Notes: generated by a model from the sequence alone, not told the origin. A DNA stretch of 64,000 nt from Paraspadella gotoi (GCA_051294375.1 CM119267.1:23318905-23382904), one strand, 5' to 3'. Positions 6,006 to 34,346 are shown, counted from the first letter of the stretch. A program made the numbers and translations.

Positions 6006-6278
6006 AGACTTGAAAACGTGACTTATACTCTAAGTGCTCTTTAAACTCTTTGTTGGCCCTGAAGCGAGGGAGAAACTGTTTTTTTTTTTAAGTTGAAGTG
6101 AGAGAATTCCCGCGCGTTGTGTCGTTTGCGCGGGATTTTCGTGTTTTTATTACGTAGTTAAATTATCAAATTCTTTTGTTTTTTTTAGTTCCTCCCCAGT
6201 TTATTTTCACTACAAAGGATAAACTTTAATCCGTGTCGGCCGCGGGTGGGAATTGTCTTTCCCTCCGCCGAATGCCCC

Positions 6279-7240
6279 ATGGCTCTTTTCTCCTCCGCGT
6301 CTCTTTTAAAACTCGCTCCATCCAAATTCGTTCCTTTCTTTTCCTCTCCTCGGCGACACGTTCACGTCCCCAAGCATATGTGGGGTCGACCCAACCCTAA
6401 GTATAAAAAGGTGAGATGGTTTTGTAATAGAGATAACTGTAAAATCCCAAATGACAAAGTTTTTAAATTTTATTTTCATATTGTGGTTCGTATAAATCGA
6501 GCAACGCGTTAATTTCCTGCGCAGGGAGAAAAACACGGTCGTTATTGGCGTTCCCGTCAAGGATTGCCCAACGTCCTCGACGAGACGGGCCCGCTGGCCG
6601 AACTGCCCGATTGGACCTTCGCCGACGGAAGACCGGGGCCTCTGTCCAGGAAGCAGACCGCAAAGTGAATAGTTGGTTGAGCCTGTGAAAGGAAAACGAT
6701 TTTAGACAAAATCGTGAAGAGACAGTAATTATTGTTGTTAGTGACAGAACCGTTCAATATAAGCAGTCCCTGAGCTTCGGATCAGGCTGTAACACCGTGT
6801 TACAGGCGGGTTAAGCGCCCCGTCCCTCTTAACTGCTAGGCGACCTCCGGGCTAGAACCCTGGACCTTTGGGTTGGGAGGCGAATGACTTGACTCCGGCA
6901 CCAATGGCCGTAATCGGTTATTTTATTGTTGGACATAAACTCTCGTCGTAATCCGTCGATCTTATTTGCCTTACCCCGCTCATCATTATTTTCCAAAACA
7001 ACTCGTTTTTACAAAAACAGGGAGATTGCCGATTCTTTATCTTTGTTGCGAAAAATGATCCAATTTGTTGTCTTCAGAGTCTTGGAACAGCAACGCCTCC
7101 TCCGCGACGTCGTGGCCGGACTCGAGTTCATCAAATTCGCTCAGTCGCGCCCTGACCGTCACGCCGAGGAAGAGGAGTCGTCGCGTCGTGCCATTTTAGA
7201 CTCAAAGCTGCGTCCCAAGGGAAACCTCGTCCTGGAATAA
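6279..7240 (+). CDS. MRPL52: Mitochondrial ribosomal protein L52 (mL52)
   Basis: Exons 6279-6410, 6525-6664, 7078-7240. Exon 2 is missing from the ORF track and reads WRSRQGLP..GPLAELPDWTFADGRPGP, the mL52 signature. C-terminal LRPKG and a presequence-like N-terminus. Confidence 0.9.
6726..6912 (-). mobile_element. Putative tRNA-derived SINE, copy 1 (in MRPL52 intron 2)
   Basis: Minus strand has a tRNA-like head (ctcccaac loop, B-box-like ggttctagccc), then ggacggggcgcttaa...ttacagc..gatcc..gggac, and an A-rich tail. A diverged copy lies at ~52410-52550. Confidence 0.55.
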
Positions 7241-7270
7241 ACTATTACTTCGTCCAACAATATTGCAACT

Positions 7271-7756
7271 ATGTCCGAATCCGAACGGGTCGATGCCCGC
7301 CTTAACAAGATCGCAAATTACGAGGCTTTTCTCAACGAGAGGCTCAAGCGCGACCTCCTTCGCGTCCACCAACGACGCGACGAGGTCTGGGAGGAGCAAG
7401 CCGAATACCTCAAGCTCAAGACGGTCGTCGAACGCGTCAAGTCTTCCCCGAGCGTCGCCCGCGACGGACTCAAGTCCCGCGTCGATCTCGGCTGCAACTT
7501 TTATGCGGAGGCTCGCGTGGACGACCCTTCGAGGATCTTCGTCGACGTCGGGCTCGGGTATCACGTGGAACTGACCCTCGACGAGGCGACTAAGGTCATC
7601 GACGAGAGAGTGGAAGCGCTCAACTCCCGCGCCGAAGCTTTAACCAAGAGCGCCAATCAGATCAAAGCGCAGATTAGGATCGTCGTGGAGGGAATCCGAG
7701 AGTTGTCCAACATTTCTCGAGAAGATGCGGAAAAGTACAGGGACGTTTGGGCCTGA
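7271..7756 (+). CDS. UXT: UXT, prefoldin alpha-like protein
   Basis: Intronless 161 aa ORF with YEAFLNERLKRDL, VDLGCNFYAEARV, IFVDVGLGYHVELTLDEA and VVEGIREL, typical of UXT. Confidence 0.92.
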   Translation: MSESERVDARLNKIANYEAFLNERLKRDLLRVHQRRDEVWEEQAEYLKLKTVVERVKSSPSVARDGLKSRVDLGCNFYAEARVDDPSRIFVDVGLGYHVELTLDEATKVIDERVEALNSRAEALTKSANQIKAQIRIVVEGIRELSNISREDAEKYRDVWA

Positions 7757-8037
7757 GATAAAGAAAGAGATCTCTCTGCTCGTGTGAAAGTGTTTTACAT
7801 GTTTTCATGTCTTTAAATATATTGATGCCATTTTTGTTTATTATAAGTTGATATTCGTATATAAAAGAACAAAGGAGTTGTAAAGAATAGCAATTAATCA
7901 AAGGTAAAGTTAAAAAGGATCCCAACTCATCATCGCCTTCTTTAAAACTCCGGTTTGTCGTTTTTCGATTTGGTTTGTTTTTGTTTCTCTTCCGCGCAAA
8001 AAGAATACCAAAGACAAAAAACCCTCGGAAGACCGAA

Positions 8038-10884
8038 ATGACGCAATCGTCTCCCGCCCCGCGCGTTCTCGTCGCCTCCAGCCTCGCGGAAAAACTCTCT
8101 ATCACTTCCTTAGACAACTTTGAGCGGGGCCTCGACGGTCCGCGACCGGTCCACGCTTTGATCGGCGTTCCCGGCGACGCTGAGTCCGGCGCCCCCATCC
8201 TCGTGCTAAACGCTTGTCGACTTCATGATCCCGACATGGGCTTCTGCGAAGTAGAACCTTGTAAGGATTCATTTAAAATAATTATAATATTTTTTCCTTC
8301 CACCAAGTAAAATAATTTTCCTCCACTTTCCTCTTTTTGTTCTAATAGGCGTCAATCTCATTCTCGCCGACATCGATTCTCATCTTTCCGGCGGAGTCTC
8401 GGTTGTCGGTCTCCTTCACTACAACGGGTCTATAGGAGGGTATGTTTGTCTAAGATAAGCATATAACTAGGTACCAAGAGGTTCAGTGTAAACAGAAGAA
8501 TTCTCGCTTACTATGTAAACTGTCCTTAATATAAGTATATATGAAAATAGACACATTTAGATTTAATACTGCAATATGTAAATGAGATTGAGAGATTCAA
8601 TTTCATTTAAGATCATATTAAATAATCATCTCTTACAGCTCTGCAACAATGAACAAAAATTGAAAATAATATGTATAATATGTACAATAAGTATTCCCCG
8701 ATCTAATACTTAAGGGAGTGGTCTTTTCATACAATTGAAACATTCTTTGAAATATTTTCCACTTCATTGATAGGGAAGCCAGGTACTCTGGGAGTTAATA
8801 AACGAGACTGTGAAAGAGTCTTGATTGAAAGCTTGCAGGGACCTGCTATGTCATTATCTTGTAAGAGTGATGGAGGCCTTAAACCACCAAAGCCTGTCCA
8901 AAGTCAGGGGCAAGATAGCTTATTTATTAAATGATTGGATAATTTTTATATTGGTTGTACCAATTTCATGTAATATCTAAATAATTTATCCTTTGCTCAC
9001 CCAGCAACATTCCCGAAGACGTCCTCCACATCTTCGACCCCTACGATTCGAAGATGCCGCGAGACCGCGACTATGTACAGCTGTCGCTGGCGCCGTCTCA
9101 GTCTGACGCCGTCGGTTACGAAATCGCAGAATGTCACGTCTTTCGAATCGGAGACGAGGATCAGGAGAAAACGACTTTTTCCGTCGTCGACGATCCGTTG
9201 GACGATTTGCTTCTCTTTCGCGTCCGCGCTTCTTTCCCGCTCAACTTGGAGATTCCCGAAGATGACGAGCAAATAATCGGCGGGGCGATCGAGCGACTTT
9301 TGACGCGACTCTCCATGAGATCCCCCGCCTTTGCCCTCGAGAGCAGCGCCGCCGATTTAATCCTCGCCCGCGGCGTCGTCTTCAACGCCGAGGGAGAAGA
9401 TCTCCGCGACGCCGGTGACGTGCGCGACTTCGCCGAAGCGGCGATGGCGCAAAGCGACGTCGACGAAGGATTCGCCATCGTCGCCTCCGCCGAAGATGAA
9501 AGAAAGAAGAGGAAGAAGCGAGCTAAGAAATCCGCGACGATTAAAGGCCCCAAATCTGCCATCTGCTTCAGATTCTTCGAACGCATCACCGGCGACGAGG
9601 CCCTCGAGCCTTTCCCATCCCACAGCCCCGTAATTCGCCTTACGCCCAAAGAATTCGTCTCTGTCAAGACTATCCTTTCGTTGGAAGCGCTGGCCGTCGC
9701 GCGTTCGGGAGATTCCCGCGAGGCGCTCCTCGATCGCTTCCTCCAAGGCCTCGAGCGGCAGATCGTGAGCTGCGGAGAGTGGCTCAAGTCGAGACTCTAC
9801 GCCGTTGTGAAAGCGTCGGCGCCTCGTCGCTTTGAATCATTTCACGCTCTGCCTGAAACTGCCGGACATTTCGTCTCCATTGTCGTCCCCATTGGCGCAG
9901 AGGACAATGACGATGACATGGAAGAAGAAGATAAGAACATCCGGCGCCGATTAGCTTATTATTTTTTCTTGCCGCCGGATCGACCGCTCTTTCGAGAAGG
10001 AAACGCGTACGTCTTCGCCGAAGAAGCCGCGAGCTCGCCTTATTTGAGAAACGTTCACTTGGGCCTGAAGCGGCCGTTACCCAATGCGGCGGAGGCGGCC
10101 GTGGCGACGGTTCAGGGGAACTACGTTTATCATCATTACTTGCAGGTAGAGAGGAAAGAGGTTTCACTTTTTCTCTATTGGTGGCGTTGTTGTATTTATC
10201 AATTCGTAACATCACAATGACTGTTATCAGGTACTTTTTGTCGCCCGACTTATTTTTTTGTAATATTACTTCAGGATCGCATGTCCGACGATGGATGGGG
10301 TTGCGCCTATCGATCTCTTCAGACGATCGTTTCGTGGTTCCGTCTTCAAGGTTACACCTCCCGTGCCACGCCCACCCACACGGAAATTCAACAGACGCTC
10401 GTCGATCTCGACGACAAGCCTCCGTCGTTCGTCGGTTCGAAGAAGTGGATCGGTTCAATGGAGGTTTGTCGCTAATTCATATTTTTGTAATTGTTTACAT
10501 TTAGTAAATCTAAATTGGATTTGAAATTATCTCCAGGTAAGCTACTGTCTTGACCATCTCGCCGGCGTCACCTCCCGCATCCTTAGCGTGAGCTCCGGTG
10601 CCGCTTTGGCGGACAAGGCGCGCGAGCTGCTCGACCACTTTCGATCGGAAGGCACGCCGGTGATGATCGGTGGCGGCGTCCTGGCGCACACGATCCTCGG
10701 CGTCGCCTTCGACGACGTCGGCGGCGAAGTCAAGTTTCTCGTTCTCGATCCACACTACACCGGCGCCGAAGACCTCAAGATCATCCAGGACAAAGGCTGG
10801 TGCGGTTGGAAGCCATCCTCGTTTTGGGACAAGAACGCCTTCTACAATCTGTGTTTGCCGCAACGACCGAGGGGAATCTATTGA
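8038..10884 (+). CDS. UFSP2: UFM1-specific protease 2 (peptidase C78)
   Basis: Exons 8038-8260, 8349-8439, 9005-10145, 10275-10463, 10537-10884 stay in frame. Motifs [11 protein letters not shown], catalytic [38 protein letters not shown] and YNLCLPQRP. Confidence 0.95.
8835..8975 (+). repeat. ~140 bp dispersed repeat, copy 1 (UFSP2 intron 2)
   Basis: gcagggacctgctatgtcattatctt...ggttgtaccaatttcat is a near reverse complement of ~31932-32068. Confidence 0.8.
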
Positions 10885-11097: not shown

Positions 11098-11559
11098 ATG
11101 GACGAGATTGAGTCTCTAGTCGCTGATATGCTCAAGGTCCAAATTGAGTCACCAAAAAACCTCGTCACCAATTCCTTCTCGGCATGGAGCTTTCGACACC
11201 GCCTCCAACGTCTCGCCTTGGACGCCGGTCGGGCAGACCTGATTCCATCAACGCCCGAGGAAGAGGCCCTCGTTCGCCAGTGGCTCAAGACGTCCATCAC
11301 GGATCCTCCGACGTGCGAGTTGGCGGAGATCCTCGACGCTTTCCTCGCCGACAGAGTCTTTCTCGTCGGGCATCGACTCACTCTCGCCGATCTCGCCCTC
11401 CTCGTCGTCGTCGGGCCGCGAATCACGGCCGCTTCCTTTGCGGAGAAGGAAAGACTGACCAACTTATCGAGATGGTTCGTCCACGCGAGAGGGGCGTTGC
11501 CGAGGATGCCGGATTCGTTGGCTGGAGGAATATTTCTCCGGACCAGACTTTATGTTTGA
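11098..11559 (+). CDS. EEF1E1: AIMP3/p18, GST-C-like multisynthetase complex component
   Basis: Intronless 153 aa ORF with STPEEEALVRQWL, LADRVFLVGHRLTLADL, EKERLTNLSRWF and terminal RLY, matching recalled AIMP3 sequence. Confidence 0.85.
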   Translation: MDEIESLVADMLKVQIESPKNLVTNSFSAWSFRHRLQRLALDAGRADLIPSTPEEEALVRQWLKTSITDPPTCELAEILDAFLADRVFLVGHRLTLADLALLVVVGPRITAASFAEKERLTNLSRWFVHARGALPRMPDSLAGGIFLRTRLYV

Positions 11560-11807: not shown

Positions 11808-11851
<44 letters not shown>

Positions 11852-12690: not shown

Positions 12691-12704
12691 TAAGATTTTT
12701 TAAA

Positions 12705-13211
12705 ATGTTTTTAGCACAATGTAGAACGAGAGTTTGGACGAACCTCTTCGACCCGATGTGGATAGGTTTTATCGAGGGACTTTCTTATCGACTCTGTCCT
12801 CTCGCCTTCTCGCTCAGTAGCAAGCCAAAAGCCTCTACAGTCCTGACGTGCCACTTACGCCAGCGGGGCTACCCTCACTGGACTTCGTATTCAGTCAAGT
12901 ATCGGGACGTCCTCAACGATCAATGGGGTCACTCGCATTTTAACTGGCTCGTCGACGGCGTTAACTACCACGTGTTGCGGACCGGGTGTTGGCCCTACAT
13001 CAAGTATCACGTTTCCAAGAGAGCGCATCAAGACTTGAGCCTCGAGGATATTCTATTCCGCTGTTTGAAGCTTTTGAATTTGGGAATCCCGACTGTAGCC
13101 TACGGACTCGGGTGTTGGATGGTGATCTCGTGCGAGGAGAGAATTCAGACGGAGCAAGGTCCAGTCACGATCTACTTCGCGATTCCAGAGGACAAAGGCG
13201 CCGTTAGTTAG
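12705..13211 (+). CDS. C15orf61: C15orf61 homologue (DUF4528)
   Basis: KPKASTVLTCHLRQR, PHWTS, NDQWGHSHFNW, NYHVLRTGCWPYIKYH, NLGIPT and EDKGA match recalled C15orf61 sequence. The start lies next to an N gap, so the true ATG is uncertain. Confidence 0.88.
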   Translation: MFLAQCRTRVWTNLFDPMWIGFIEGLSYRLCPLAFSLSSKPKASTVLTCHLRQRGYPHWTSYSVKYRDVLNDQWGHSHFNWLVDGVNYHVLRTGCWPYIKYHVSKRAHQDLSLEDILFRCLKLLNLGIPTVAYGLGCWMVISCEERIQTEQGPVTIYFAIPEDKGAVS

Positions 13212-13256
13212 CGAAGGAGAACGGATATTTAGGGTAATTGCTAAGAATCTCTCGCG

Positions 13257-14246
13257 ATGGTTTTTTGGACGGCGGTCGGCGTCGTTTCTCTCACCGGCGC
13301 CATTATTCATCTCGCCCGTCGCTATTTTACCGGCGCTATTTGCAAAGATCGCTCCTCGTTGGCGGGAAAGACCGTGATCGTCACCGGCGCCAACTGCGGT
13401 ATCGGAAAAGCCGTGACGCGTATCTTAGCGGAGCGCGACGCGCGCGTCATCTTGGCTTGCCGAAACACTACGACGGGCGCGGAGGCGGCGTCGGAGGTAG
13501 CGAAGGCCACCGGACACGACGCCACTCAGTTGGTCGTCAAGCACTTGGATCTGGCCTCCCTCGAGTCAGTCACCGCCTTTTGCGCGGACATCGTCGCCAC
13601 GGAACCGCGAATCGATGTGATCGTCTGCAACGCCGGTTTGGCGTCTCTTCCGCAGCTGGTGCGCACCGTCGATGGGTTCGAGACGCAAATGGGCGTCAAT
13701 CACTTGGGTCACGTCGCGCTCACTCAACGTCTACTCCCAGTTTTAAAGGCGTCGGCGCCGTCGAGAATCGTCGCCGTCTCTTCGGTTCTCTACAAGAATG
13801 GCAACGTCGACCCCAACTATCTCAACTATGAACAGAAGAAATACGACCCCAACACCGCCTACGCCGATTCCAAACTTGCCACAATTCTCTACAACGCCGA
13901 ACTCGGTCGTCGACTCGCCGACTCCCGCGTCAACGTCTTCAGCGCCTCGCCGGGAATCGTGTACACAAACTTGGGACGCTTTCGATCCTTCACAGTTCTT
14001 GAGAAAATCCTCGCCGTCCCCTTCGCTATCCTCTTCGTACGGACTCCTCATCAGGGCGCCCAGAACGTCATCCACTGCGCCACGGAGCCTTCGCTGGAGG
14101 ATCCCGCTGCGTCGGGAAAGTTTTATCGGGATTGCAGGGAAAAGGAGTTAGTGAAAGGTCATCAGGCCGAAGATCCCGAGTTGGCTCTGCGGGTGTACGA
14201 GGCGTCGTTGAAATTAGTCGGGATGGAACCGGACAAGAAAACTTAG
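13257..14246 (+). CDS. Retinol dehydrogenase 11-14-like short-chain dehydrogenase/reductase
   Basis: N-terminal hydrophobic anchor, TGANCGIG Rossmann motif, NAG, NHLGH and catalytic YADSK. Intronless. Confidence 0.93.
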   Translation: MVFWTAVGVVSLTGAIIHLARRYFTGAICKDRSSLAGKTVIVTGANCGIGKAVTRILAERDARVILACRNTTTGAEAASEVAKATGHDATQLVVKHLDLASLESVTAFCADIVATEPRIDVIVCNAGLASLPQLVRTVDGFETQMGVNHLGHVALTQRLLPVLKASAPSRIVAVSSVLYKNGNVDPNYLNYEQKKYDPNTAYADSKLATILYNAELGRRLADSRVNVFSASPGIVYTNLGRFRSFTVLEKILAVPFAILFVRTPHQGAQNVIHCATEPSLEDPAASGKFYRDCREKELVKGHQAEDPELALRVYEASLKLVGMEPDKKT

Positions 14247-14671
14247 TGAAAATCGGGGAGCCCGGATATCGAAGGAGATTGGCCCCGCTGATTGGTCGGC
14301 GTAGTAGCGCCGACTTTCTTACAGTTTTTTCTTTTGTTTTTCTTTTGTTTTCCTTTCGTTTTTTCTCTGATAAACGTGTGATCTACCGGACTAACCGTTT
14401 CAAAATACGATTCTTGGCGAGACGGACCGATGAATCTGTATTCAATTTTGGAATATTTTTTTTCCACTCTCGTTAAATCAATTTACGTTATTGAAATATA
14501 CATATTATACATACAATGCCTATTGAGACGATCTTCAATTACTCTGAGATTTAAATTCGATTTTTTCCCCCCCAAGCTTAACCCGTGTAGTTCGGGATGT
14601 TCCCAACGGAAAAAATTATCAGTGGCTTCGAAATTTCTTAAACTCTTCAATCCCTCATATAAGAAAATAAT

Positions 14672-17411
14672 ATGGAGACGGACGCGCCCCTCAAGTCGGA
14701 CTCTCGTCCTCTCTCCTCGGCCTCCTCCGCCGAGTCCCTCAATTCTCTCAAACCCAAGTCGCCCTCCTCCATCGTCGCCTCTTGCCCGACTTGCGGCAAG
14801 AGCTTCTGCAGCGTCGGCGCCCTCAAGCGTCACAATATCAGCATCCACCTCAAGAACGAGATTTTTCCCTGCAACGTCGCCGGATGCGGAAAGACTTTCT
14901 TGCTGAAGGAATATCTCAAGAAGCACCTCCGTCGCTTTCACAAACTTCCTCCCATGTTTCCGCGGAAACGGAAGAGCACCTCCGATCTGAAGGCGTTGAA
15001 GACGTCGGCGAAGGGCATGGCCGGAGGCGTCTCGGCGCCGGAAAAGGGACTCGACATCTCCGGTGAATCTCCCGATCAAACTTCCTCTGGCCAAAGCTCC
15101 GCTCCGCCGCAGTTGAAAACCTTCGCCGAATCTCTATCCCGCTCGGAGAGATCCGCGCCCGATTCAGCCTCTCCGTTCCCTGCGCGACCTTCGAAACCTC
15201 TCGCCAGGAAAAAGTCTTCCTCGTCGACGAAGACTGTCCGCATCTCGGCCGACGAAAGCGTCGGGGGTGAGAGCGACGGGCCCCTTTCCGACGCCGCCTC
15301 GTCATCTTCCAGTCCGGAAAAACCCGGCGCCGGTCTCGGTATCGCCGGAAAGGGCAAACGCCGCAAGCAGAAGAAGGCGCTGGTCGAAGGATGGGTGGAT
15401 CCGGATGAACTCGGCGACGATTACTGGTTGCCCGGCGCCGCAAAGAAAGTCAAGATTGCCGAAAAGAAAAAAGGTGGGGAAACTGTAACGCCGGAGGCGG
15501 TGGCCGCCGCCGCTGCCGCGGCGACTGCGGCGCTCAACGCCATGACGGCTGCGTCGGTAGCATCGGCAGCACCGGCAGCACCAGCACTGAAAAAGAAGAC
15601 AATCGAGGAAAAACCAGTTGTTGACGGCGTAAAAGTTGAGACGAACCTCATTACGCCGGCGCGAAAATCCTCGGGCAAGTCCCCCATTACGGTTGCCGGA
15701 AAGTCAATACCGATGTCGGTCGGCAAGCCCGCTCTGACGCCATCGGGCAAGTCCGTCGCTCCGCCGTCGGCTAAGTCCGCTCCGACGCCCGCCGGAAAGT
15801 CCTCCCCGACGCCCGGCAAAAAATCTAGTGACGCCTCCCTTCAGAAATTAAAAAAGATTCGTTCCAAAACTCTGGCCGATCGAAAGGAGCTTTCGAGGGA
15901 AAGCCGATTCAGTCCCGCGATCGACCGGAAGAGCGCCACCGATTCCCCGACGCCGTCTTCCTCCGGCGCCGGACAATCGAGCAAATCCGTCAAGGGGCCG
16001 GTGATTCGAGTTAGAGGCGATTCCGTCGATATCGTGAACAACCCGGAGGCGGCGTCGCAGGTTAGTGTGATGGATTGATTGATTTATTGATTCGAGTGCG
16101 TTATTGATTCTGTTGATTTATTGATTCTGTTGATTTATTGATTCTATTGATTTATTGATCCTCGTCGAATTTTCCTCGACGATCCTTATGCTTTTAAAAA
16201 TTTGTTGTCTTTTCAATTTAATTACCTTAATTAATTTTTGTTATTGTTATTAGAAAAAATCGGTGATCATTATCTTATTAACACGCAACCTCGGTCAAAC
16301 CACATGACCTTACCAACCTTACCTCGCTCAATTCCCCCAACTTATTTATGGTCAAAACGGTTGACCTTTATGGTCAAACGTTGACCTTTGTAAATACCAT
16401 TGTAATAGACTTAGTATCTGAGCATTTTGACTGTTATTGTTTATAACCTTGTTGAAGAATAAATCATTCTTGATCTGAAACTTGTATCGTCCATAATCTC
16501 TCCCATTCCCTCAAGGTGATCAACGGTTGTAAGCCGGCTAAGTGCCGCTACTACGCCGGCCCTTACGTCAACGAAAAGATCGCCAAGGGCTTCTACAATC
16601 GCCCGCCGACGCATTTCGTCCTCAATTACGAGGACACCCACAACTGGCGCTGCATGCTCTGCGGCCACGGCAACTTCTTCGACGATCTCGGCCAACTCTT
16701 CGGTCCGTTCCACGTGGCCGAGTCCAAACTCGACGCCATCTTCGCCGAGTCTCTCGTCAGCCTCTGCCGAGAGTCGATGGCTTCGATGTCGGAGGCGGCG
16801 GTGCTGTCGCCGAGGCGGAGCAGGATCGTGGCCGGAACCAAGGGGCCGGTGCAGGTCAGGATGTAGTATCCGCTTTTTTTTTCTTTTCTATTTTCCTTTT
16901 TCTTTTCTTTTCTCTTCTCTTCTTTTGTCACTTCTTATCTTTATCCATTTTCTTCTCTTTTCTGTTTTCTTTTCTTTTCTTCATTAATCTCCTTTTCCTC
17001 CAGGGATCCAAATCCCCCACCCGATCCGCCATCACCTCCTCCGGCAACATCGCTCAAGAGACGGACGACTCTGTGGCCGTGACTAACCCCGACCCTGAGC
17101 CTTTCGAGATTTGGCTTCACGAATCTTGCGTAGTTTGGTCGGTAGGCGTCTACATGGTGGAAGGCAAGCTCTATGGGCTGGAGGAGGCGCTAAATCTGGC
17201 GGCCGAGACCAAGTGCTCCTTTTGCCTGGAGTTGGGCGCCTCGCTCGGCTGCTTCAAGAGCTGCAACAGCAACTATCACTTTCACTGCGCCAGGAAAAAC
17301 TGCTGTCAATTTAACGAGGAAACTTTTACCATTCGATGTCCGAAGCACGCCGAGTCGAGGTCGACGGTCCTGACGGCGTCAAAGGAGAACGTCGCCGTCG
17401 TGGCTCATTAA
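14672..17411 (+). CDS. TCF20/RAI1-like extended-PHD protein with two N-terminal C2H2 zinc fingers
   Basis: Exons 14672-16060, 16516-16854, 17004-17411. C2H2 fingers CPTCGKSF..H and CNVAGCGKTF..H. ePHD motifs WRCMLC..LGQLFGP and WLHESCVVWSVGVYMVEGKLYGLEEAL..CSFC..GASLGC..YHFHCA..CPKH. Confidence 0.8.
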
Positions 17412-17847
17412 GAAAGAAAGGAAAGAAAAAAAGAAAGATAGTCAGTTTGCTAAATTATTTTCTAATTTTACTAAGTATGCTGATTGAAAATCTATTGAGT
17501 TATTCACAATTAGCGGAATTTTTTTTTTTCAATTGACAATTCATTTATCCCATTGAATCTAGCTTCGCCAAATTATTTTGCGCTTCCAATTTTGTTTAAT
17601 TTTTGTTAGTCCAAATTTTTCGTCGCGTTTATTGACGTTGCGACAAAATTACCCTAATTAGTCATCGTCATTATATTTATGTGCCATTTATTTTCCTGAC
17701 CGTTTTTATTTATTAATTAGTAATTACTCGCCCTCCCCTCGTTTTAGGACGTGCTAAGTTCGCTTCTATCTCAATTACTTGTTCTCGACTTTTGCACTGT
17801 TGTCATTTATTTATTTACTCGCAAAAGACTAAAACTCAAAATAAACA

Positions 17848-20800: not shown

Positions 20801-21033
20801 CGGGAAAGCGAGATATTAAAAAATGCATTATAAATGCTTTCATTGTGTATAGCTCTAAAATACGAAAAGAATGACACCTTTTTCATAACTCTATGACAAT
20901 TTTCAGCGGAAAAAAATGTGTCTACCATGCATTCAAACCATTTAGCTGGTTCATTATTCAAGGCCAGAGAAATTGTGGTGAGGTAAAAAATTATTTACAA
21001 ATAAGAGAAGGTGAGAGGAAGAGGAGGAGACTC

Positions 21034-21064
<31 letters not shown>

Positions 21065-24000: not shown

Positions 24001-25583
24001 GACGGACCGAACGGCGCCGGTTTAGCCGAGGTACATAGTTAATTGAAGATTATATTCATAGGAATTAAAATAGATTCAAAATTAAATTTGTGTTTACAAT
24101 GGTAATTTTCGATTTTCGATTAAATCTAATTTTGATTTCTAAATAAATGAAACTAATTTAATTATTTCATTCAGTAATTTTTTACAACGTTTCCTACTCA
24201 TTTCAGAGCGACATCTTCTCCGCCCTCGACGCTAACGTCCGCGACGAGCTTCGAACCACTTATCCGGATCCTCTCCTCGTCTTCAATTTTACTCAGACTT
24301 TCTCCTTCGATCTCGTGGGCGACATCGAGGCGATGAACGAAAACGCCGAGGGATTTCATCGCTCCACTCTCGAGAGGAAAAAGCGAGAGGTCCGTTGCGC
24401 CTGTCTCAAACGGGACGATCTCTCATTTCCTTCCTTCGGCCGCCTGCTCGACGCCTGCTTGTTTCCCTTGGTCCGGAAACGTTCGGTGTTGGTGTGTCAA
24501 GCGCTGGTAGACAGCCTACTGAAGAAGTCGGCCTTGCTGGAGGAATTGTCGGCGCTGCGAAAGGTCTACTTGCTGGAGGCCGGAGATGCGATGCACACGT
24601 TTTGCCTCGAGGTGTTCGATCGACTCAACGCCGGCGACGAATCTGTTCGTCAAGAGGGATTTTTAAACTCGGCCTTTGACGACGCGTTGTCGAGACATCA
24701 CGAGGCCGTTGCCGATCGCGTCACCGTCGTCGTCGGCGCCGTCGCCGAAGACTCGGCCGGAGATTCTTCCTCTCCCATCCACGCCCTCGACGGATTGAAG
24801 ATCGAGATGGACGTCCCTTGGCCCGTCTTTCCCCTCATCGTGACTCCGTCTCATTTGGAGGTCTACGATAGCATTTTCGTGAGTCTGCTTCAGATCAAGC
24901 GGGCCAAGCATTGTCTCGACTCGTTAAAATTCGAAGATCTCCGCATCGACCCCGTGGAGATCCTCAACGCTATCAATGGCGGCGCCGGGGCGGCGCTCCT
25001 TCCCCGCGACTCCCACGGCGACTTCGCTCCGGTCCACGTCGCAGTCGCGCACCTTCGCCACCGCGTGATCCTCTTCCGACACCGCCTGGCACACTTTGTC
25101 AATTCGCTACACAACTACGTCATGCAGCGGATCCTCCACGTTATCCGCGTCGACTTTCAAAAGAAGCTCGAAGCCGCGGGAGAGATCGAGAACGTGGACG
25201 AGCTGCGGCAAATGCACGGCGAGTTCGTACAGCAAGTGTGGGAACGATGCCCGCTCAATCCCAGTTTCCGCAATTTTCGCCAGCTTATCCTCAAGATGCT
25301 CAACATCGCCGTTGTGTTGCATCAGCGCTGGCGGTCGTCGCCGTCGTCGGGCGCCTCTGTTTCTCTATTATCTCCGACTCGCCGGCTTCCGGAAAAGCCG
25401 CTCGACCTCTCGCCGGATTTACCGATAGCTCCCTCGGTCGTGATTACCCCTAAGAACTTCGAGGATATGGACTACCAAATGAGGCAGTTGATCGTCTTCA
25501 TTCAAACTTTTCTCGAGAAGGTGGTCAAGAGGGGAAGCTTCCCGCATTTAGAGGCTTTTGCTCGGGAGATTTTACCGCGGTGA
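17848..25583 (+). CDS. TUBGCP5: Gamma-tubulin complex component 5
   Basis: Exons 17848-18063, 18159-18485, 22258-22647, 22907-23119, 23194-24030, 24207-25583. Motifs FDWPAFLREGEE, LTESQALRECLWLL, RTYQAF, MAGKSMEIL, YLLEAGDAMHTF, HFVNSLHNYVMQRILH and KRGSFPHLE. Confidence 0.9.
18612..20924. mobile_element. Non-autonomous TIR DNA transposon, hAT-like (8 bp TSD)
   Basis: 37 bp TIRs tagacacatttttttccgctgaaaat(g/t)gtcatagagt with one mismatch, further inverted subterminal blocks, and TSD ccatgcat at 18604-18611 and 20925-20932. No intact transposase. Confidence 0.85.
21093..21626 (-). pseudogene. GIY-YIG endonuclease domain of the Penelope-like element (RT absent)
   Basis: GIYSFRCSC..YIGETCRSFETRTAEH..SGLTQH..EALWI..LNEDKG is the Penelope GIY-YIG pattern. 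Confidence 0.85.
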
Positions 25584-26082
25584 CGTTAGTCTTTATCTCT
25601 CATTTCTAACCTGTGATCTCTCCTAGTCAATACTGTCGTGTCTCAGTTTTGTTAAGCTACTACTTTAATTAATACAAATTTCCAGTGAACTAGTTGTATT
25701 ATTATCACTATTATGATTAATAATGGTTAACACGGTCTGTTTTTTTCGTTATTTTGAAACTTTTCACTCTTACAAATTATTCGTTGTTTGTTGTTCCAAC
25801 CTCATAAAAATAGTTCGTGTTATCTTTTATTATTTATTTTAAAGTGGATTTTCGAGCGTATCTTTTTCTCGAAAATGCAGTCCCCACATCACTTTACCAT
25901 TTATAGAATTAATGCCGTTAACTTGGTTGTATTCCCATAGTTAAATCAGGTTATTTAAAAAAATGTTGTGCCTTGAAACGAGGAGAGCCGATTAGTAGGA
26001 TAAAGGAAAAAAAATAATTTCAAAACAAACACCACCTACAAACAAAACTCAAAGAATAAGAATAACAAAAAAAGGGACGACA

Positions 26083-26827
26083 ATGTCCTCGGAACAGTTC
26101 GAAAACAACGAGGACGATTTAAAGAGCCTCGTTGATGGACTTCGATCTCGCATCGAGAATCGCCTCCCGCGTCTGACTGGCGAGGAGCGGAAGTCGGCCG
26201 TGCGGGAGAGCGAACGAGAGATCGACGATGCCGAGGCTCTGGTCAAAGAGATGAGGGAGGAGGCGAGCGTCGCCCCGCCGCAGTATCGCTCGCAAATGAT
26301 GACTAAAGTGAGTGGAAATATTTGAAATAGATTTCGATAAGAAATTTTATTTTAAAAGTTACGGGCAAATTTACGTACGGTTTTTTCGTACTTTTCGGTT
26401 TAAGGTTCGACAAAGGGAGCAAGACATCGTCTCTATCAAACGCAGTCTCGAAAAACATTCCCTGACGGCTCGCGACGCGCCGTTCCGCGGAGGCGCGCGA
26501 TCGCTGGAGGAGCAACACCGAGCACAATTAGTGCAGGGAACCGCGTCTCTGAGCCGCGGGAGCGATAGCCTCGCGCGCACCCATCAACTCGCCGCGGAAA
26601 CCGACCAGATCGGCACCGACATTCTCGAGGATCTGGGCACGCAGCGAGAACAGCTCGTCCGCGTGCAGACGCGCGTGCACGAGACTGACGCGACGTTGCG
26701 GAGCAGCGCCAAAACTATCCGAACCATGGGTCGCAGGGTCATGACCAACAAACTCATTCTGGTCGTTATAATCGTCTTAGAAATCGCCATTTTGTGCGGA
26801 TTGGTATATTGGAAATTTTTCACCTGA
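26083..26827 (+). CDS. VTI1B: Vesicle transport SNARE VTI1 (VTI1B-like Qb-SNARE)
   Basis: Exons 26083-26307 and 26405-26827. Habc domain, SNARE motif AAETDQIGTDILEDLGTQREQL, RRVMTNKLIL and C-terminal TM ending YWKFF. Confidence 0.88.
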
Positions 26828-27110
26828 ATTTGTTTTATATCAATTAGTTGTAAATGTTTTTGTTTGAATCGGTGAACGTCGTTGTTACTTGATACGTCGA
26901 AAAAAGATTTCAATTATCTCGTTTTTACTCTTATTTCTGTCACGAATAAGCTGCCGCACGCTTGTTCAATGTTCTACAAATTTTTATTTCATCTCGCGAT
27001 AAACATTTGCCCTCTTTGCCGGTTAATCAATGATTATTGATGATCACCTTCGCTCCCCACGCCTTTCTAGTCACTTTAACTCAGGAACGCCGCCGTCGCG
27101 TCGCCGCGAA

Positions 27111-28511
27111 ATGGCATCGTCGAGTTCGACTGTCACGGGTGACGCCGCCTCCGACGTCGCTGATAACGCCTACTTTGCCGAATACTCGGATCTCTCCGTC
27201 CAAGAGTTAATGCTCAAAGACTCAGTCCGCGTCACCGCTTACCGGGATGCCGTGAGAGATAATAGCCATCTTTTTGAAGGGAAGGTGTGTCTCAAGTTTC
27301 TGTTCACTTGCTCTTTCGTTATATTTCGTTTATCTTTAGCTTATGTTATTCTTTCTTTATGTATTTTTTTCTCATCACTTTTAATATCCTTCAATTCTTC
27401 CCACCCACTCAGACGGTTATGGATGTTGGCGCCGGAGTCGGCGTCTTGTCTCTCTTCTGCGCGCGCGCCGGCGCTAAACGCGTTTACGCCGTCGAAGGTA
27501 GCGGGGCGGCGATGGTGGCGGAGCGGGTGGTGGCCAAGAACGGGATGAAGGAGGTTGTGAAGGTGGTTCATCGAAGGGTGGAAGACATCAACGACATGGA
27601 CGATGTTGAGGTCGACGTCATCATCTCCGAATGGATGGGTGCGTCGATGGGAGGAGGGCATCGGGTAAATGGAAAATTGGGCGAACCAATCAATTTACCA
27701 ATCAATTCTAGGCTTTTATCTCCTTCACGAATCCATGCTCGACACTGTGATCTTCGCCCGCGATAAATGGCTCAAACCCGAAGGTCTCCTCTTCCCTTCC
27801 TTCGCCTACCTTCTCCTCGCCCCCGTCGACATGTCGGTCAACCTCGCCGAGACGGCGGCCGCTTGGACCGACTTTCACGGGTTCGACCTTAGCCCGGTCG
27901 GCGCCGCCTTAGACGCTCGCCGCGCCGCCAAGCCCGCCGTCCTCGACGTGTCCGAGTCCCAACTTCTCGCCGACCCGCGGACCCTGGCCTCTTTCGACCT
28001 GAAGACCGTCTCGTCGGACGAAGCGGCCGCCGTCTTCCAGGCGTTGACCTTCGACGTAGACTTGGGCGAATCGTCAAAGCCTTCGAAATCCTCTTCCTCT
28101 TCTACGCGCCCCTTTCACGGCTTCGCCTGTTGGTTCGACGTCGTTTTCGCCGGCGACCCTTCCGCCCGTCCCATCACTCTCACGACCCGCCCCGGCGCCC
28201 CGTCGACCCATTGGAAGCAAACCGTCTTTTTCCTACCTCGGGCATCCGAGGTCCGCCACGACGACGTCGTCTCATGCTACGCCACGTTGACGCGGGACTT
28301 GGACAATCCGCGCCGTTACGACGTCTGCATCGATTTGCGTCGGGACGGGGTGGAGGACGAGGAGGAGGGAGATATAGACATGGAGGGAAAGGATCATCCG
28401 CTGCCGTGCGACTGCGGAGCCGCGAGGTGCGCCCTTATAAAGGCGGTGCTGGAAAAATACGCCAGGGAGGAGACAGAACGATTGGAGGCAGAAGCGGAGT
28501 TGCACGAATAA
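27111..28511 (+). CDS. Type I protein arginine methyltransferase (PRMT6/Art8-like)
   Basis: Exons 27111-27284, 27413-27638, 27712-28511. Motifs YFAEYSD, MLKD, VMDVGAG, double-E loop SEWMGFYLLHESML, THWKQ, and a C-terminal HPLPCDC..RC extension. Confidence 0.88.
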
Positions 28512-28690
28512 AAAAAACAAAAAACTTGAACTATGAAACTTGGATTATTTCGTTTTGTTCTGAAACATTTGGAAAAATCTTTTTTTTTTCCGCTACGCCG
28601 ATTGGAAATTTAATCATTGAATTAAGAAGTCTGTTGTTCACCTTTACTCGAGGCTCACGATTCATTGTTTATTTTTTTAGTCGAGTTAAA

Positions 28691-31600
28691 ATGGCCTCGG
28701 TCACGAATGATCTATCAGAGATTGAAGAATTTCGTGACCAATCTCTGATTAGCAGCGTTGACAGGCGTTCCACGTTGGGCGTTCTTGACGAAACACTAGA
28801 CAATCCCTCGAAATCACTTATGGAAGCGCCCGAGGACTTTTATCTGGAAGATTGGTCGGGCGTCATCTGCGACTTGATATTCTTTGGAGAGCTTAAGGAG
28901 ACGGAGCGTTATCGGGCAGTCTCTAAAAAGTTTGAGGCGAGATATGGGACAACCAATGATAACTGGTGTCCTGTTCGTAAACGTCTTATATCCTTGGATC
29001 GGTGGGAGGCGGAAAAGGCAGCTGATGCTAGTACAAGCTCTGATAAGGAAAACGCGATTTCCGACATGGAAGAGGCCAGTAATAAAACTTTGGACAGTAC
29101 ACACATGTCAGAGGCCAGAACCAATAACATGGCAAAAGTCATTATTAACACTGATGTTGCTGAGGCCAGTGTAAGCACTGTGGCTGTGGACAGTATGTTC
29201 ATCGACACGGCAGATGTCAGAAAGAACACTGAAATGGCCGAGTCCATTACAAACACCAGAATGGCAGAGGCCAGAGTAAATAATGAAAAGGCAGAGGCCA
29301 GAGAAAACACTGAAATAACAGAAGCCAGAAAAAAGGCTGAAATGGCAGAGGCCAGAGAAAAGGCTGAAAAGGAAGAGGCCAGAGAAAGGCTGAAAAGGAA
29401 GAGGCCAGAGAAAAGGCTGAAAAGGAAGAGGCCAGAGAAAAGGCTGAAAAGGAAGAGGCCAGAGAAAAGGCTGAAAAGGAAGAGGCCAGAGAAAAGGCTG
29501 AAAAGGAAGAGGCCAGAGAAAAGGCTGAAAAGGAAGAGGCCAGAGAAAAGGCTGAAAGGAAGAGGCCAGAGAAAAGGCTGAAAGGAGAGGCCAGAGAAAA
29601 GGCTGAAAGGAGAGGCCAGAGAAAAGGCTGAAAAGGAAGAGGCAGAGAAAAGGCTGAAAGGAAGAGGCCAGAGAAAAGGCTGAAAAGGAAGAGGTCAGAG
29701 AAAAGGCTGAAAAGGAAGAGGCCAGAGAAAAGGCTGAAAATGCAAAACCAAAAAAAGGCTGAAATGGCAGAGGCCAGAGAAAAGTCTGAAATGGCAGAGG
29801 CCAGAGAAAGTCTGAAATGGCAGAGGCCAGAGAAAAGTCTGAAATGGAAGAGGCCAGAGAAAAGTCTGAAAAGGAAGAGGCCAGAGAAAAGTCTGAAAAG
29901 GAAGAGGCCAGAGAAAAGGCTGAAAAGGAAGAGGCCAGAGAAAGGCTGAAAAGGAAGAGGCCAGAGAAAAGGCTGAAAAGGAAGAGGCCAGAAAAAAGGC
30001 TGAAAAGGAAGAGGCAGAGAACAGGCTGAAAAGGAAGAGGCCAGAGAAAAGGCTGAAAAGGAAGAGGCCAGTACAAACACTAACAAGGCAGAGGCTTGTA
30101 CAAATTTTAAGGTGGCAGAGGCCAGCATAAACCTTAAGGCGGTAGATGCCAGTACAAGCAATGACGTGCCTAACAATACTGACATCGCTAGAAACAACAT
30201 TGATTTTCCTAAAGCTCGTACTATCATTCCCATAGTAGAAGATAGCATAAATAAATCTCTCGCAGAATACAGTACAAATGCTTTCTTGCCAGAAAATATG
30301 TCTTCTGTCATCCGAGAAGCTAATATTAAAGGAATAAAGGAAGGCTATGCAACTATTGTCATGCCAGAAACTCATTCACAAATTAGAGAAGCCAAACTTA
30401 ATTCTCCCAAATTACATGTGTCTGGGTCTCCAGAGGAGCGTTCGCTTTTTTCAAGGAGGTCGAGCGTTGGCGTAGAATCAATCGAGAGCGCTATTAGGTG
30501 TCAGGAAGAAAAAAAACAGCTTTTACAGTCTCTTAAAAGTGTGAAGCAAACTGTTAACAATATGGCCTTGAAGCATGGGTTATACGACAAGCACATCGCA
30601 GAAAAATTGAGTCCTTTACCTGAGCATTTGAAGAGAACTAGTTTTGACGAAGAAAGCATTAAAAGCCAAATTAAAAAATATGAGGAGAAAGCTGAACGTT
30701 TGAAATACTTGGACAAGCTCAAGGAAAAGGTCAAAGAAGAAGGCATGAATATTTTTCAAGAACATTGTCAACCCCACAAAGGTAACCAGCTTGAGAACTC
30801 TGATGTCGTCTTGTCTCAGGATCCCCTTATGCCGTTTAGAACTTTTGCAAACAGCAGACGTCCCTCCATGGATTCTCTGATTGAAGAGTCCGAGGATCCT
30901 CTCGACAATCCTATCGAAAATAAAGACCCCTTCACCACAGAGAAGCAGAACGAGCCCAGTTGTCAGTCTGGATGCGAACGCTCCGACCCGTCCGACCTGA
31001 CCCGACCTGTTTGTGTCGATAGCCCACGTCGCCGACGTGGCACTTTAGATTCGCCGACCACCACCAAAGTTCCGATTGTCTATAAAAAGCCTACTCCACT
31101 AAAAAGTCCCTCTATTTTGAGGGCGGTCAATTCTAATACCTGTACTGATGTCTCGTTCGACGCAGCCGCGACCTACGAGACCTCATCCCGTAAAGTGGGA
31201 TTTAAAAATGATCTTGAGACTTCGCCAGTCAATTCGAGTCCTTCTCATTTGTCGGTCGTCACCCCGAGTCGATCCGCGCTGAAAAAATCCGCCAAGCGAA
31301 TTCCGGTTTCGTCGCCTTCCGGCAGGCTCGGCGCTTCTCATGCGTCGGTCTCATCCGACTCCGGGTCGCCGCTGCTTCATCGAGCGCCCTCTCCGCCCGG
31401 TTCTCCCACTCCCGCGGTACGGCGTCACGGAACCCTCGTTCGCCAGCTTTTTTCCGACGATACCCCGGTGATCGGGGCGAAGGCTCAAACGCCTCAATCC
31501 AAAACGGCCTTGTCTAACCAATCCTCGTACGGGGGCAGTCGTATTCCCGTCCCCTCTTTCAAGCCTAAGCCGACCGAGGCTCGCGAGCCTGTCGCGTCTT

Positions 31601-31818
31601 CAGTCTTGACGTTTCGTCGTCATCTCACGCCAGGGACAACGCCCGCATTAGGATCGACCGGCACCAAGAGACCCGCCACTCCGAGAAGAGTGCCTTCTCC
31701 AAACTTATCTGTTCCTAGAATTCAATTTTCGCGCTTCAATGGAGTCGTGGGTTCTCGAGCAGCGGTGAATCCAAGCCCCGTCATCTCGACGACATCTCGC
31801 ACTCCTTTTCGTCGCTAA
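28691..31818 (+). CDS. Large orphan protein (~1000 aa) with an EAREKAEKE repeat and a basic Ser/Pro-rich tail; apparent frameshifts inside the repeat
   Basis: ATG at 28691 follows ttttttag. Open frames lie on both sides of the array (to ~29385 and ~30060-31818). Frame breaks coincide with A-run length variants in the repeat units. Confidence 0.6.
29330..30070 (+). repeat. 27 bp coding minisatellite gaggccagagaaaaggctgaaaaggaa
   Basis: Roughly 27 tandem units, with 25-26 bp variants. Confidence 0.95.
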
Positions 31819-31931
31819 GTCTAAATTACTTGATAGAGTTCATTTATTTACCAACTGATCGTCGGACATTCGCCGCTGTTTAAATTATCATTCCGATTTT
31901 CAACCTCATTTGTTATCATGTTATGTTGTAA

Positions 31932-32068
31932 TTATGAAATTGGTACAACCAATATATAAATTATCCATTCATTTAATAAATAAGCTATCTTGCCCCTGAC
32001 TTTGGACAGGCTTTGGTGGTTTAAGGCCTCCATCTCTCTAATAAGATAATGACATAGCAGGTCCCTGC
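31932..32068 (-). repeat. ~140 bp dispersed repeat, copy 2
   Basis: Reverse complement of ~8835-8975 with a few substitutions. Confidence 0.8.
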
Positions 32069-32380
32069 TATGATACCTGCCCAACACCCCTTTTTTATTG
32101 TTCTGTGATATTGTTGTCAATTCTGACGGATACCGCAATACTATGTGAAATCACAATTTTGCTTTTACATTTATGCCCCTCTACCTCGCATTATATTGAA
32201 AAAACTATTTTTTAATTGTTCTGTGATACTGATCTATTTTGATGGATACCACACTCACGGTTTTGATTTTAATTTTATGCCTCTCTACCTCGTATTACTA
32301 TGTTTTAAAAGGTAAAATTTACTTTTTTATTTTATATTTTACTTAGCTTATTTTTTGAAACGCGTTAAAAATCAAACAAA

Positions 32381-32796
32381 ATGTCCGCTCACGGATTGGA
32401 CAAAATTCCAGACTCTTTGGGTTTCATGGTTTTGAATGAAGACGGCGGCATTCTCTCCTCAGGAGGTGATCTTGACGGGCAGGACAGAATTGCGGGTAAG
32501 CTCGTTGTCTTTATATATAATCAATTAATAAGTTAAACAAAACTCGCCTTAACTTTCTCCCCCGCTTTTTTTTTTCTCTAGGCATCATGACTTCCATGCT
32601 CCGGTGTCTCTCCCGCCTTCGCAAAGATGACGGTTCGCCCCAATCCTTCCAAAGAGTCACGCTCGTCCTCGACGCCTTCTTCTACGGAGTCACCGTCAGC
32701 AACCAAAAGATCTTCGTCGTCAAACGATCGAAGAAGCCGGCCGTTCCGGCCAAGCGCGATGACTTCGAGGACGACGACGAATTCCGGCGAAATTAA
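32381..32796 (+). CDS. LAMTOR4: Ragulator complex subunit LAMTOR4
   Basis: Exon 1 (32381-32495, absent from the ORF track) reads MSAHGLDKIPDSLGFMVLNEDGGILSSGGDL. Exon 2 (32582-32796) has FQRVTLV..VTVSNQKIFVVKR. Confidence 0.88.
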
Positions 32797-33236
32797 ACTT
32801 TGAAGGAGATCAAACTGTTTCTTCTTTGTTTGGTTCGTCTTTGCACGAGCATATTTTCTCGGTTTGAAGGTTGTAGATCGGCAGGGCATATTTGCGTTTT
32901 GATTTTTTGTTTTGTAAATACACCAATGAGGGTTGCCTATTGCCCAATATTATATTATAAGGCTTTACCCGAATTAAATGGTTGTTAGTTTCTAAAATTA
33001 GTGGGGGGCTCCCTTAAATCGCAGCTAAGATGAGGTGATTTATCCCACCCTCTCTCCTCTTTCTCTTCATAACATCCGCGTCGTTCTCCCCGACTGGTTG
33101 CTGGTCAACCTCCGTTGATTCGCTATTTTTTTCCAGATGTGAAAATAATATTCGGAATTGTGATTTTCTTCTTTCTTTTCTTCAACGGAAGGATAAAAGA
33201 AATAAAGAAAAAAAGTCAGCGTCACGCGATTCTTTT

Positions 33237-33668
33237 ATGTCGATCGCGGATCCGTCGAGTCGGAAACATGACGTCGACGAACGCGACGATCGGCGCGACG
33301 ATCGCCGCACCGTCGTCTACGGGCTCATAGATTTAGGGAAGAAGTCGGACCGGGAGATCGAGGTCTTGCTTCAACATTTTAACTTCCGTGTTCACTTATT
33401 ATATTTTAAGATGAAGATTTTCATTGTTCCTTTCTTTTCCATTTCCAAGGAGCTTTTGAAGATGGCGCAATCGCTAAAGCTCCACCGGATGTTCCGAACC
33501 TGTCACGAAATTTTAACGCAGCGGCGGTTGACGCATCCGACTTTGTCGTCGCCGCCGCCGCCGCCGCCGACGACGATGGCGCCGCAGTCAAAAAGGCGCT
33601 CCGTGCTCTTCGCCGGAGAGCGGAGTTCCGGATCGGGCACGCTCAAAGTCGGCGATATCGGTTTTTAA
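33237..33668 (+). CDS. Small uncharacterised protein with a segment resembling the C-terminal helices of a BTB/POZ domain
   Basis: Likely in-frame 87 bp GT-AG intron at 33363-33449. The spliced product contains VVYGLIDL..EIEELLKMAQSLKLHRMFRTCHEIL. GC-rich, coding-like exons. Confidence 0.5.
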   Translation: MSIADPSSRKHDVDERDDRRDDRRTVVYGLIDLGKKSDREIEVLLQHFNFRVHLLYFKMKIFIVPFFSISKELLKMAQSLKLHRMFRTCHEILTQRRLTHPTLSSPPPPPPTTMAPQSKRRSVLFAGERSSGSGTLKVGDIGF

Positions 33669-34346
33669 GGCTCCTACGATTCGATTAACCGCCCGTCGAG
33701 TTTTGTTTTTTTGTTCCTGTGATGCTTACATATCAATTATTTATACAATATTTCGAACATATTACATATAGTCGCTATATAAAATCAAAATGTTATATAT
33801 TTCCCACGTGCTTCATCTTTAATCGTCTCTTGTTATTTTCGATTTGAGAATGATCTTGTGGTACAAGTTGTACAATACTATGTATGATTTTGCGTCCGTT
33901 TGAACAACGGAGTCATCAAAGTTCGAATCTCGCCTTTTTGTATAACATTCTCGAATGTTTACATAGTTCTATAATTTTGATCTCATGACATATCAATATA
34001 TATGACTACATAGATCGAGCTCTCGTTAAGTTTAAAATCTAGCTTTTCCGTTGATTTTATATTTTTGAACTTGGCATGTTGGACATTTCATAATATTAAA
34101 GTAGATATTAGTTAAATTTGTTGAAACATTTATTAGTAAAAAAAGTGAACAAAAAAGCGTCGAGATTCACATTGACACAAATAATGTAACCTCCCGTTAG
34201 ATTTTAAATCCTAATTAACTTAATCGTTTGTTCTACTAACTCGTTGATATTTATTTTCTCATAGTGGTAAAAATAACGCCTGGTACTATAGCCATTAGCC
34301 GTCTGGAACTAAAAAAAAAATAAAAACTACACTATAGATTATAGAA

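What the first reader, a model, noticed from the sequence alone, without database searches (positions are those of the whole stretch)
6175..34264. Unpaired splice acceptors upstream of start codons (candidate trans-splice sites)
Seen: polypyrimidine-AG sites shortly before ATGs, with no recognisable upstream coding exon. The AG ends at 6188 (MRPL52), 14576 (TCF20-like), 17747 (TUBGCP5), 25906 (VTI1), 27084 (PRMT), 28680 (orphan), 32346 (LAMTOR4), 33136 (BTB-like) and 34264 (KIAA1143). Inference: these are SL addition sites. T-rich spacers can also give such matches by chance, and short 5' UTR introns are an alternative.
Basis: partly seen in the sequence, partly recalled or inferred. Interest (0 to 1): 0.7.

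Follow-up and report, generated by a model that had tools for sequence, protein, structure and literature searches.

The report
Arrow-worm operon with trans-splice acceptors
Seventeen mostly housekeeping genes sit packed on one strand in what is likely an arrow worm, and the splice-like AG sites before nine of them are likely places where a shared leader RNA is added to cut a long transcript into single messages, a process already described in that animal group.

Summary
All nine AGs are at the stated coordinates, with pyrimidine tracts like the cis acceptors (78% vs 76%). On sequence alone they are only weakly above chance: antisense strands score about as well, but the best AG lies in the downstream half in 10 of 10 long spacers. 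The context carries the case. 17 genes run on + over 42 kb. Spliced RNA contigs bridge 7 of 11 spacers tested, and no listed cis joint ends at a claimed AG. The closest relative of the C15orf61-RDH pair (L001) keeps both genes in order on one 1566-nt contig. Its first 7 nt match the published chaetognath spliced-leader 3' end. So this is likely a chaetognath operon region resolved by SL trans-splicing, already published for the phylum. No leader was seen at any of the nine AGs. Five are read through unspliced in the contigs, and seven other genes have weak or no acceptor. Side lead: two 30-45 nt spacers lack a good acceptor, and the C15orf61-RDH pair is conserved in relatives, which may mean unresolved two-gene mRNAs.

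The parts
1..6005 (+). UTP20 (5' end outside window)
   Evidence: Pfam UTP20_N/UTP20/UTP20_C
6175..6188 (+).
6279..7240 (+). MRPL52, 3 exons; last exon has no ATG in any frame and AATAAA overlaps its stop
   Evidence: Pfam
7241..7270 (+). 30-nt MRPL52-UXT spacer with no AG
7271..7756 (+). UXT-like prefoldin subunit, single exon
   Evidence: Pfam Prefoldin
8038..10884 (+). UFSP2 (first exon boundaries not fully resolved)
   Evidence: Pfam UfSP2_N, Peptidase_C78
11098..11559 (+). EEF1E1/AIMP3-like GST_C protein
   Evidence: Pfam GST_C, Arc1p_N_like
12705..12724 (+). Unlisted candidate acceptor (AG 12714) followed by an ATG-stop element also seen just after the leader-like start of L001
   Evidence: use as acceptor inferred
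12756..13211 (+). C15orf61 (DUF4528), single exon
   Evidence: Pfam; 74% to L001
13212..13256 (+). 45-nt C15orf61-RDH spacer, no AATAAA, weak AGs; 38 nt in L001
13257..14246 (+). Retinol-dehydrogenase-like SDR, single exon
   Evidence: Pfam
14557..14576 (+). Claimed acceptor before TCF20-like gene; crossed unspliced by X1 contig
14672..17411 (+). TCF20-like (C2H2 + extended PHD), 3 exons
   Evidence: Pfam; joints
17728..17747 (+). Claimed acceptor before TUBGCP5; strongest site (p=0.006); crossed unspliced
17848..25583 (+). TUBGCP5, 6 exons
   Evidence: Pfam; joints; open frame
25887..25906 (+). Claimed acceptor before VTI1; upstream ATGs at 25912 and 25963; alternative AG at 25940
26083..26827 (+). 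VTI1, 2 exons
   Evidence: Pfam V-SNARE
27065..27084 (+). Claimed acceptor before PRMT; rival AG 27070; crossed unspliced
27111..28511 (+). Protein arginine methyltransferase, 3 exons
   Evidence: Pfam
28661..28680 (+). Claimed acceptor before orphan gene; crossed unspliced
28691..31818 (+). Orphan gene with 27-nt tandem array (frameshifted in the assembly)
   Evidence: RNA contigs
32327..32346 (+). Claimed acceptor before LAMTOR4; no RNA test possible
32381..32796 (+). LAMTOR4, 2 exons
   Evidence: PDB matches
33117..33136 (+). Claimed acceptor before 'BTB-like' gene; followed at once by ATG-stop; rival AG 33191; crossed unspliced
33237..33668 (+). Small spliced gene, family not identified (no BTB match)
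   Evidence: joint
34245..34264 (+). Claimed acceptor before KIAA1143
34347..35199 (+). KIAA1143-like (DUF4604, weak), 4 exons
   Evidence: joints
35378..39941 (+). BAH-domain, Arg/Ser-rich gene (last junction not resolved)
   Evidence: Pfam BAH; joints
40268..42178 (+). Second Arg/Ser/Gly-rich gene, 2 exons
   Evidence: joint 40666-40733; open frame

Best explanation
The window holds 17 genes packed on the + strand, which are likely one or more operons of a chaetognath (arrow worm), and most of the listed AGs, or AGs a few dozen bases from them, are likely acceptors where a 36-nt spliced leader is added. Shown: the gene order, the AGs and tracts, and spliced RNA contigs that cross most spacers. 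Inferred: RNA polymerase II makes multi-gene precursors and cis introns are removed. The upstream message is then polyadenylated close to the next acceptor, and the spliceosome joins a capped leader to the donor-less AG, freeing each downstream message. The T-rich tract would lie in the upstream gene's 3' UTR, which is why contigs run on through it.
For: 17 of 17 genes on + (chance 1.5e-5), stop-to-ATG spacers 30-678 nt except one gapped 1196. X1 contigs skip 17 cis introns yet bridge 7 of 11 spacers tested in single records. No listed joint ends at a claimed AG. Best AG is ATG-proximal in 10 of 10 long spacers. L001 carries C15orf61 (74%) then RDH (58%) 38 nt apart and starts with GTTTAAA, the 3' end of chaetognath leader forms 2-4 (PMC2481426 Table 3); chance 1e-4 to 4e-4 at one position, and the chaetognath idea was noted before the contig was fetched. 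8 of 18 C15orf61 relatives share a contig length with one of 19 RDH relatives; 0 of 7 in a control cluster. UTP20 falls in no named group. The phylum has published leaders and operons.
Against: No leader sequence was seen at any window AG; only 17 of 58 and 6 of 98 loose ends were displayed. 5 of the 9 AGs are crossed unspliced by contigs. Shuffle tests are weak and antisense controls are similar. No branch-point enrichment. 4 of 9 sites have an upstream ATG before the main start. The lineage rests on one 7-nt match in one contig not shown to be RNA, plus exclusion; no named chaetognath sequence was compared. A contig across two genes does not show a single transcript. X1 is one study.
Confidence: 0.66

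Rival explanations
1. Part of the cluster is expressed as stable multi-gene mRNAs. The leader goes only on some genes, and downstream frames such as RDH and UXT are translated by re-initiation, so several listed AGs are unused.
For: L001 runs from a leader-like start through both genes and ends 13 nt after an AATAAA, with no AATAAA in its spacer. 8 of the 10 C15orf61-relative contigs of at least 1500 nt match an RDH contig length. The MRPL52-UXT spacer has no AG. 5 claimed AGs are crossed unspliced.
Against: Assembled contigs merge overlapping messages and drop short leader branches. C15orf61 has 2 internal ATGs in the window and 6 in L001, which argues against simple leaky scanning. AGs inside the upstream coding exon (7199, 13188, cis acceptor 7077) could serve as acceptors; MRPL52 exon 3 has no ATG.
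Confidence: 0.14
2. The genes are tightly packed but each has its own promoter. UTRs abut or overlap, and the AGs are chance matches in T-rich spacers.
For: Sense vs antisense best scores do not differ (p=0.80); antisense shuffle p is as low as sense. Spacers turn from about 40% T to 41% A near the ATG, which could by itself bias AG scores. 7 of 16 genes lack a listed site.
Against: 30- and 45-nt spacers leave no room for a promoter. The leader-like tail on L001 and the conserved gene pair. 17 genes on one strand.
Confidence: 0.13
3. The AGs end short cis introns in the 5' UTRs.
For: Tracts resemble cis acceptors. Moderate donors exist upstream at 6098 and 33035.
Against: No joint among the 15 of 17 shown or the 10 shown ends at a claimed AG, while 17 coding-region introns are seen. 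Five sites are crossed unspliced. No donor reaches the cis median.
Confidence: 0.05

Closest known systems
Chaetognath SL trans-splicing and operons (Spadella cephaloptera RPS14-PCNA operon, PMC2481426; Paraspadella gotoi genome survey, PMC12460157)
   Same: Co-oriented housekeeping genes with short spacers and donor-less AGs. A relative's contig starts with the published leader tail. In Spadella only three bases separate the poly(A) site from the next acceptor, which fits contigs running through spacers.
   Different: The run here is 17 genes; the longest published operon has nine. Leader addition is not shown at these sites. Two spacers have no AG or only weak ones.
Tunicate operons resolved by a general-purpose leader (Ciona, Oikopleura; passages of PMC7986045)
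   Same: Very short intercistronic distances and no operon-specific leader.
   Different: Different lineage; the Ciona leader printed there ends in AG, whereas the chaetognath leader ends in AAA.
Directly translated dicistronic mRNAs (Drosophila Adh-Adhr and stoned, passage in PMC2776167; green algae, PMC7896298 listing only)
   Same: Two frames tens of bases apart on one contig, conserved between species (C15orf61-RDH).
   Different: Those systems lack a leader; translation of both frames from one message is untested here.

Membership tests
SL trans-spliced operon (chaetognath type) | Neighbouring genes on one strand with very short spacing | tested here: met
   17 of 17 on +; stop-to-ATG 30-678 nt in 15 of 16 spacers
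SL trans-spliced operon (chaetognath type) | Acceptor (tract + AG) without upstream donor before downstream genes | tested here: inconclusive
   Present at 9 of 16 genes, weak excess over shuffles, absent before UXT
SL trans-spliced operon (chaetognath type) | Leader joined to transcripts at these AGs | tested here: inconclusive
   None seen in X1 contigs, most loose ends hidden; 7-nt leader-like start on relative L001
SL trans-spliced operon (chaetognath type) | RNA spanning gene boundaries | tested here: inconclusive
   Spliced contigs bridge 7 of 11 spacers, but contigs do not prove one molecule
SL trans-spliced operon (chaetognath type) | Leader absent from the locus and encoded by an SL RNA gene elsewhere | not testable with these tools
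   No leader gene found in the window; rest of genome not available
SL trans-spliced operon (chaetognath type) | Single upstream promoter | not testable with these tools
   Needs capped 5' ends; the cluster starts outside the window
Chaetognatha | Groups with named chaetognath sequences | tested here: inconclusive
   No named chaetognath hit; long unplaced branch; leader tail on closest relative
5' UTR cis intron | GT-AG junction ending at the AG | tested here: not met
   No listed joint at the 5 covered sites
Directly translated dicistronic mRNA | Both frames on one mature, polysome-bound message | not testable with these tools
   Only contig-level linkage

The most novel reading that the evidence does not exclude
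Arrow worms run a mixed system: a 17-gene operon, longer than the nine-gene maximum published, in which most genes are freed by leader addition but some pairs (C15orf61-RDH, kept across distant relatives; MRPL52-UXT) stay as leader-capped two-gene mRNAs, or use an acceptor inside the upstream coding exon so that only one of the two proteins can come from a given precursor.
Probability: 0.22. Interest if true: 0.65.

Novelty: new member of a known kind. Interest (0 to 1): 0.36.

Why it matters
Leader trans-splicing and operons are already published for chaetognaths, so the acceptors mainly add a site-level map for one long cluster. The added value is the conserved C15orf61-RDH pair and the AG-free MRPL52-UXT spacer. 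They give a concrete, cheap test of whether an animal with a spliced leader leaves some operon genes unresolved or makes them mutually exclusive.

Tried and rejected
No whole genome is held, so no genome-wide acceptor model or leader-gene search was possible. Run search: no RNA holder listed on record; X1 is a guess, though its contigs are spliced. X2 and X3 gave only short matches. Rfam: 0 hits; motif scan for a leader gene in the window: none. Parts without contig cover (about 25878-25940, 33950-34290, LAMTOR4 exon 1) prove nothing. Contig ends are not transcript ends: one appears to start near 25941, just after AG 25940, with about 5 unplaced letters (estimated from bin depth), another at 34291; neither is counted. 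The 24 letters of the long X1 record beyond 12720 could not be read. Full PWM and branch-point tests gave nothing; the KIAA1143 start was set one base off, fixed. UTP20 tree was the quick method only and left the row unplaced. A test of RDH-TCF20 linkage in relatives found no matching contig length. L002 and L003 are more distant and gave no RDH match. The protein atlas gave no answer. Searching three supplementary PDFs of PMC12460157 for six gene names gave 0 hits; its table file could not be read. Earlier-findings look-ups returned nothing. Literature searches listed no paper on chaetognath dicistronic mRNAs or a C15orf61 gene pair; only the top 10-30 rows were listed, from an open-access library.

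Full report
Observation. All nine AGs end at the stated coordinates on the + strand, 10-176 nt before the main ATG. Their tracts are 78% pyrimidine, against 76% for 23 cis acceptors from the same genes. The statistics are modest. A PWM from the cis acceptors gave Fisher p=0.065 over 15 spacers and no sense-antisense difference (p=0.80). A pyrimidine-tract model gave p=0.008 and 0.047 for sense, but 0.034 and 0.023 for antisense, with p=3e-6 for the cis control. The clearest signal is position: the best AG is in the ATG-proximal half in 10 of 10 spacers of at least 270 nt (p=0.002), though spacers also shift from T-rich to A-rich there. No branch-point enrichment was found. The list omits 7 of 16 downstream genes, which have weak or no acceptors.

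Anatomy. Bases 1-42178 hold 17 genes, all on +: UTP20, MRPL52, UXT, UFSP2, EEF1E1-like, C15orf61, RDH, TCF20-like, TUBGCP5, VTI1, PRMT, an orphan, LAMTOR4, a small unidentified gene, KIAA1143-like, a BAH gene and an Arg/Ser-rich gene. Stop-to-ATG spacers are 30-678 nt, apart from one gapped spacer. 'BTB-like' got no BTB match. Beyond 42.3 kb the window reads as low-complexity and repeated DNA; it was not scanned against families.

RNA. One run, X1, holds the region as contigs. I laid 12720-29160 and 30170-40760, covering 8 of the 9 sites. The contigs skip 17 coding-region introns, so they derive from spliced RNA. Single records bridge 7 of the 11 spacers in these stretches; one record covers C15orf61, RDH, TCF20-like and TUBGCP5. 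Five claimed AGs (14576, 17747, 27084, 28680, 33136) are crossed unspliced, and no listed joint ends at a claimed AG (15 of 17 joints shown; 10 shown, 1 dropped). This counts against 5' UTR introns. It neither shows nor excludes leader addition: contigs drop short branches, and only 17 of 58 and 6 of 98 loose ends were displayed, none leader-like.

Lineage and relatives. Named hits come from many animal phyla at similar distance, and UTP20 is a long unplaced branch in a quick tree of 36 rows. A set of unnamed proteins is clearly closer (RDH 51-59%, C15orf61 70-74%). 8 of 18 C15orf61 relatives share a contig length with one of 19 RDH relatives, against 0 of 7 in a control cluster, which suggests the pair stays together. 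One scan returned 3 loci; L001 (1566 nt) shows the pair directly, in the same order and 38 nt apart. It starts with GTTTAAA, 22 nt before the C15orf61 ATG, and ends shortly after an AATAAA. That 7-mer is the 3' end of chaetognath leader forms 2-4 (PMC2481426 Table 3), with a chance of 1e-4 to 4e-4 at a given position. I infer a chaetognath with probability about 0.85. This rests on one contig, and no named chaetognath sequence was compared.

Mechanism. Most likely (0.66) these are operons resolved by leader trans-splicing. Shown: gene order, AGs, spliced RNA across spacers, conserved pair. Inferred: co-transcription, polyadenylation next to the acceptor, leader addition. In Spadella three bases separate the poly(A) site from the next acceptor (PMC2481426), which would explain continuous contigs. 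The exact AG is uncertain where an upstream ATG follows it (6188, 14576, 25906, 33136) or a neighbour scores higher (6199, 27070, 33191). Rivals: stable multi-gene mRNAs (0.14), separate promoters with chance AGs (0.13), 5' UTR introns (0.05).

Odd spacers. MRPL52-UXT is 30 nt with no AG; AATAAA overlaps the MRPL52 stop, and the last MRPL52 exon has no ATG, so a leader added at 7077 or 7199 would give a clean UXT message at the cost of MRPL52 (inference). C15orf61-RDH has no AATAAA and only weak AGs in both species. These are the most novel leads and are untested.

Comparison with print. PMC12460157 reports 10,197 of 21,072 genes trans-spliced, 18% in operons, the longest with nine genes. I saw its abstract, passages, Methods part 1 of 2 and searches of three supplementary PDFs; its table file, which lists genes and operons, could not be read and may already cover such a cluster. 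PMC2481426: passages and section 12; its alignment files were unreadable. PMC2566580, PMC7986045, PMC2776167: passages. PMC7896298: listing only. Five searches listed no paper on chaetognath two-gene mRNAs.

Verdict. The AGs are real, and likely leader acceptors as a class but unproven site by site, in a phylum where this is known. New member of a known kind; interest 0.36.

Noticed in passing
window 7078-7270: Last MRPL52 exon plus the 30-nt spacer hold no ATG before the UXT start, and the spacer has no AG; an acceptor inside MRPL52 would make the two messages mutually exclusive.
   Followed up: partly
window 12715-12724; L001 11-25: An ATG followed at once by a stop lies just upstream of C15orf61 in both species; another follows AG 33136.
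   Followed up: partly
window 18552-21985: The 3.8-kb TUBGCP5 intron holds adjacent or nested inverted-repeat elements (arms 18612/20858, 20924/21796, 18552/21915) and a 282-aa minus-strand ORF with no Pfam match.
   Followed up: partly
window 23120-23193: GC-AG intron in TUBGCP5, supported by an RNA joint.
   Followed up: yes
window 8835-8969 and 31934-32068: 135-nt dispersed repeat, 96% alike, in a UFSP2 intron and inverted in the spacer before LAMTOR4; very deep in X1 contigs.
   Followed up: no
window 6770-6915: Stretch in MRPL52 intron 2 that looks by eye like a tRNA-derived short repeat on the minus strand; no Rfam hit.
   Followed up: no
window 1-3930: UTP20 exon of at least 3.9 kb; the genes here are intron-poor, four being single-exon.
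   Followed up: no
window 29266-30071: 27-nt coding tandem array in the orphan gene with single-base indels that break the frame, probably sequencing errors.
   Followed up: no
window 38990-39010: The apparent last acceptor of the BAH gene follows a 17-base A run rather than a pyrimidine tract; junction not resolved.
   Followed up: partly
window 55815-61450: Direct and inverted copies of kilobase stretches around gaps; look like assembly artefacts.
   Followed up: no
P0242, P0247: Two RDH relatives have 22-24 extra N-terminal residues, probably translated spacer; in P0247 it is rich in Phe/Leu/Ser, hinting at a pyrimidine tract in that species.
   Followed up: no
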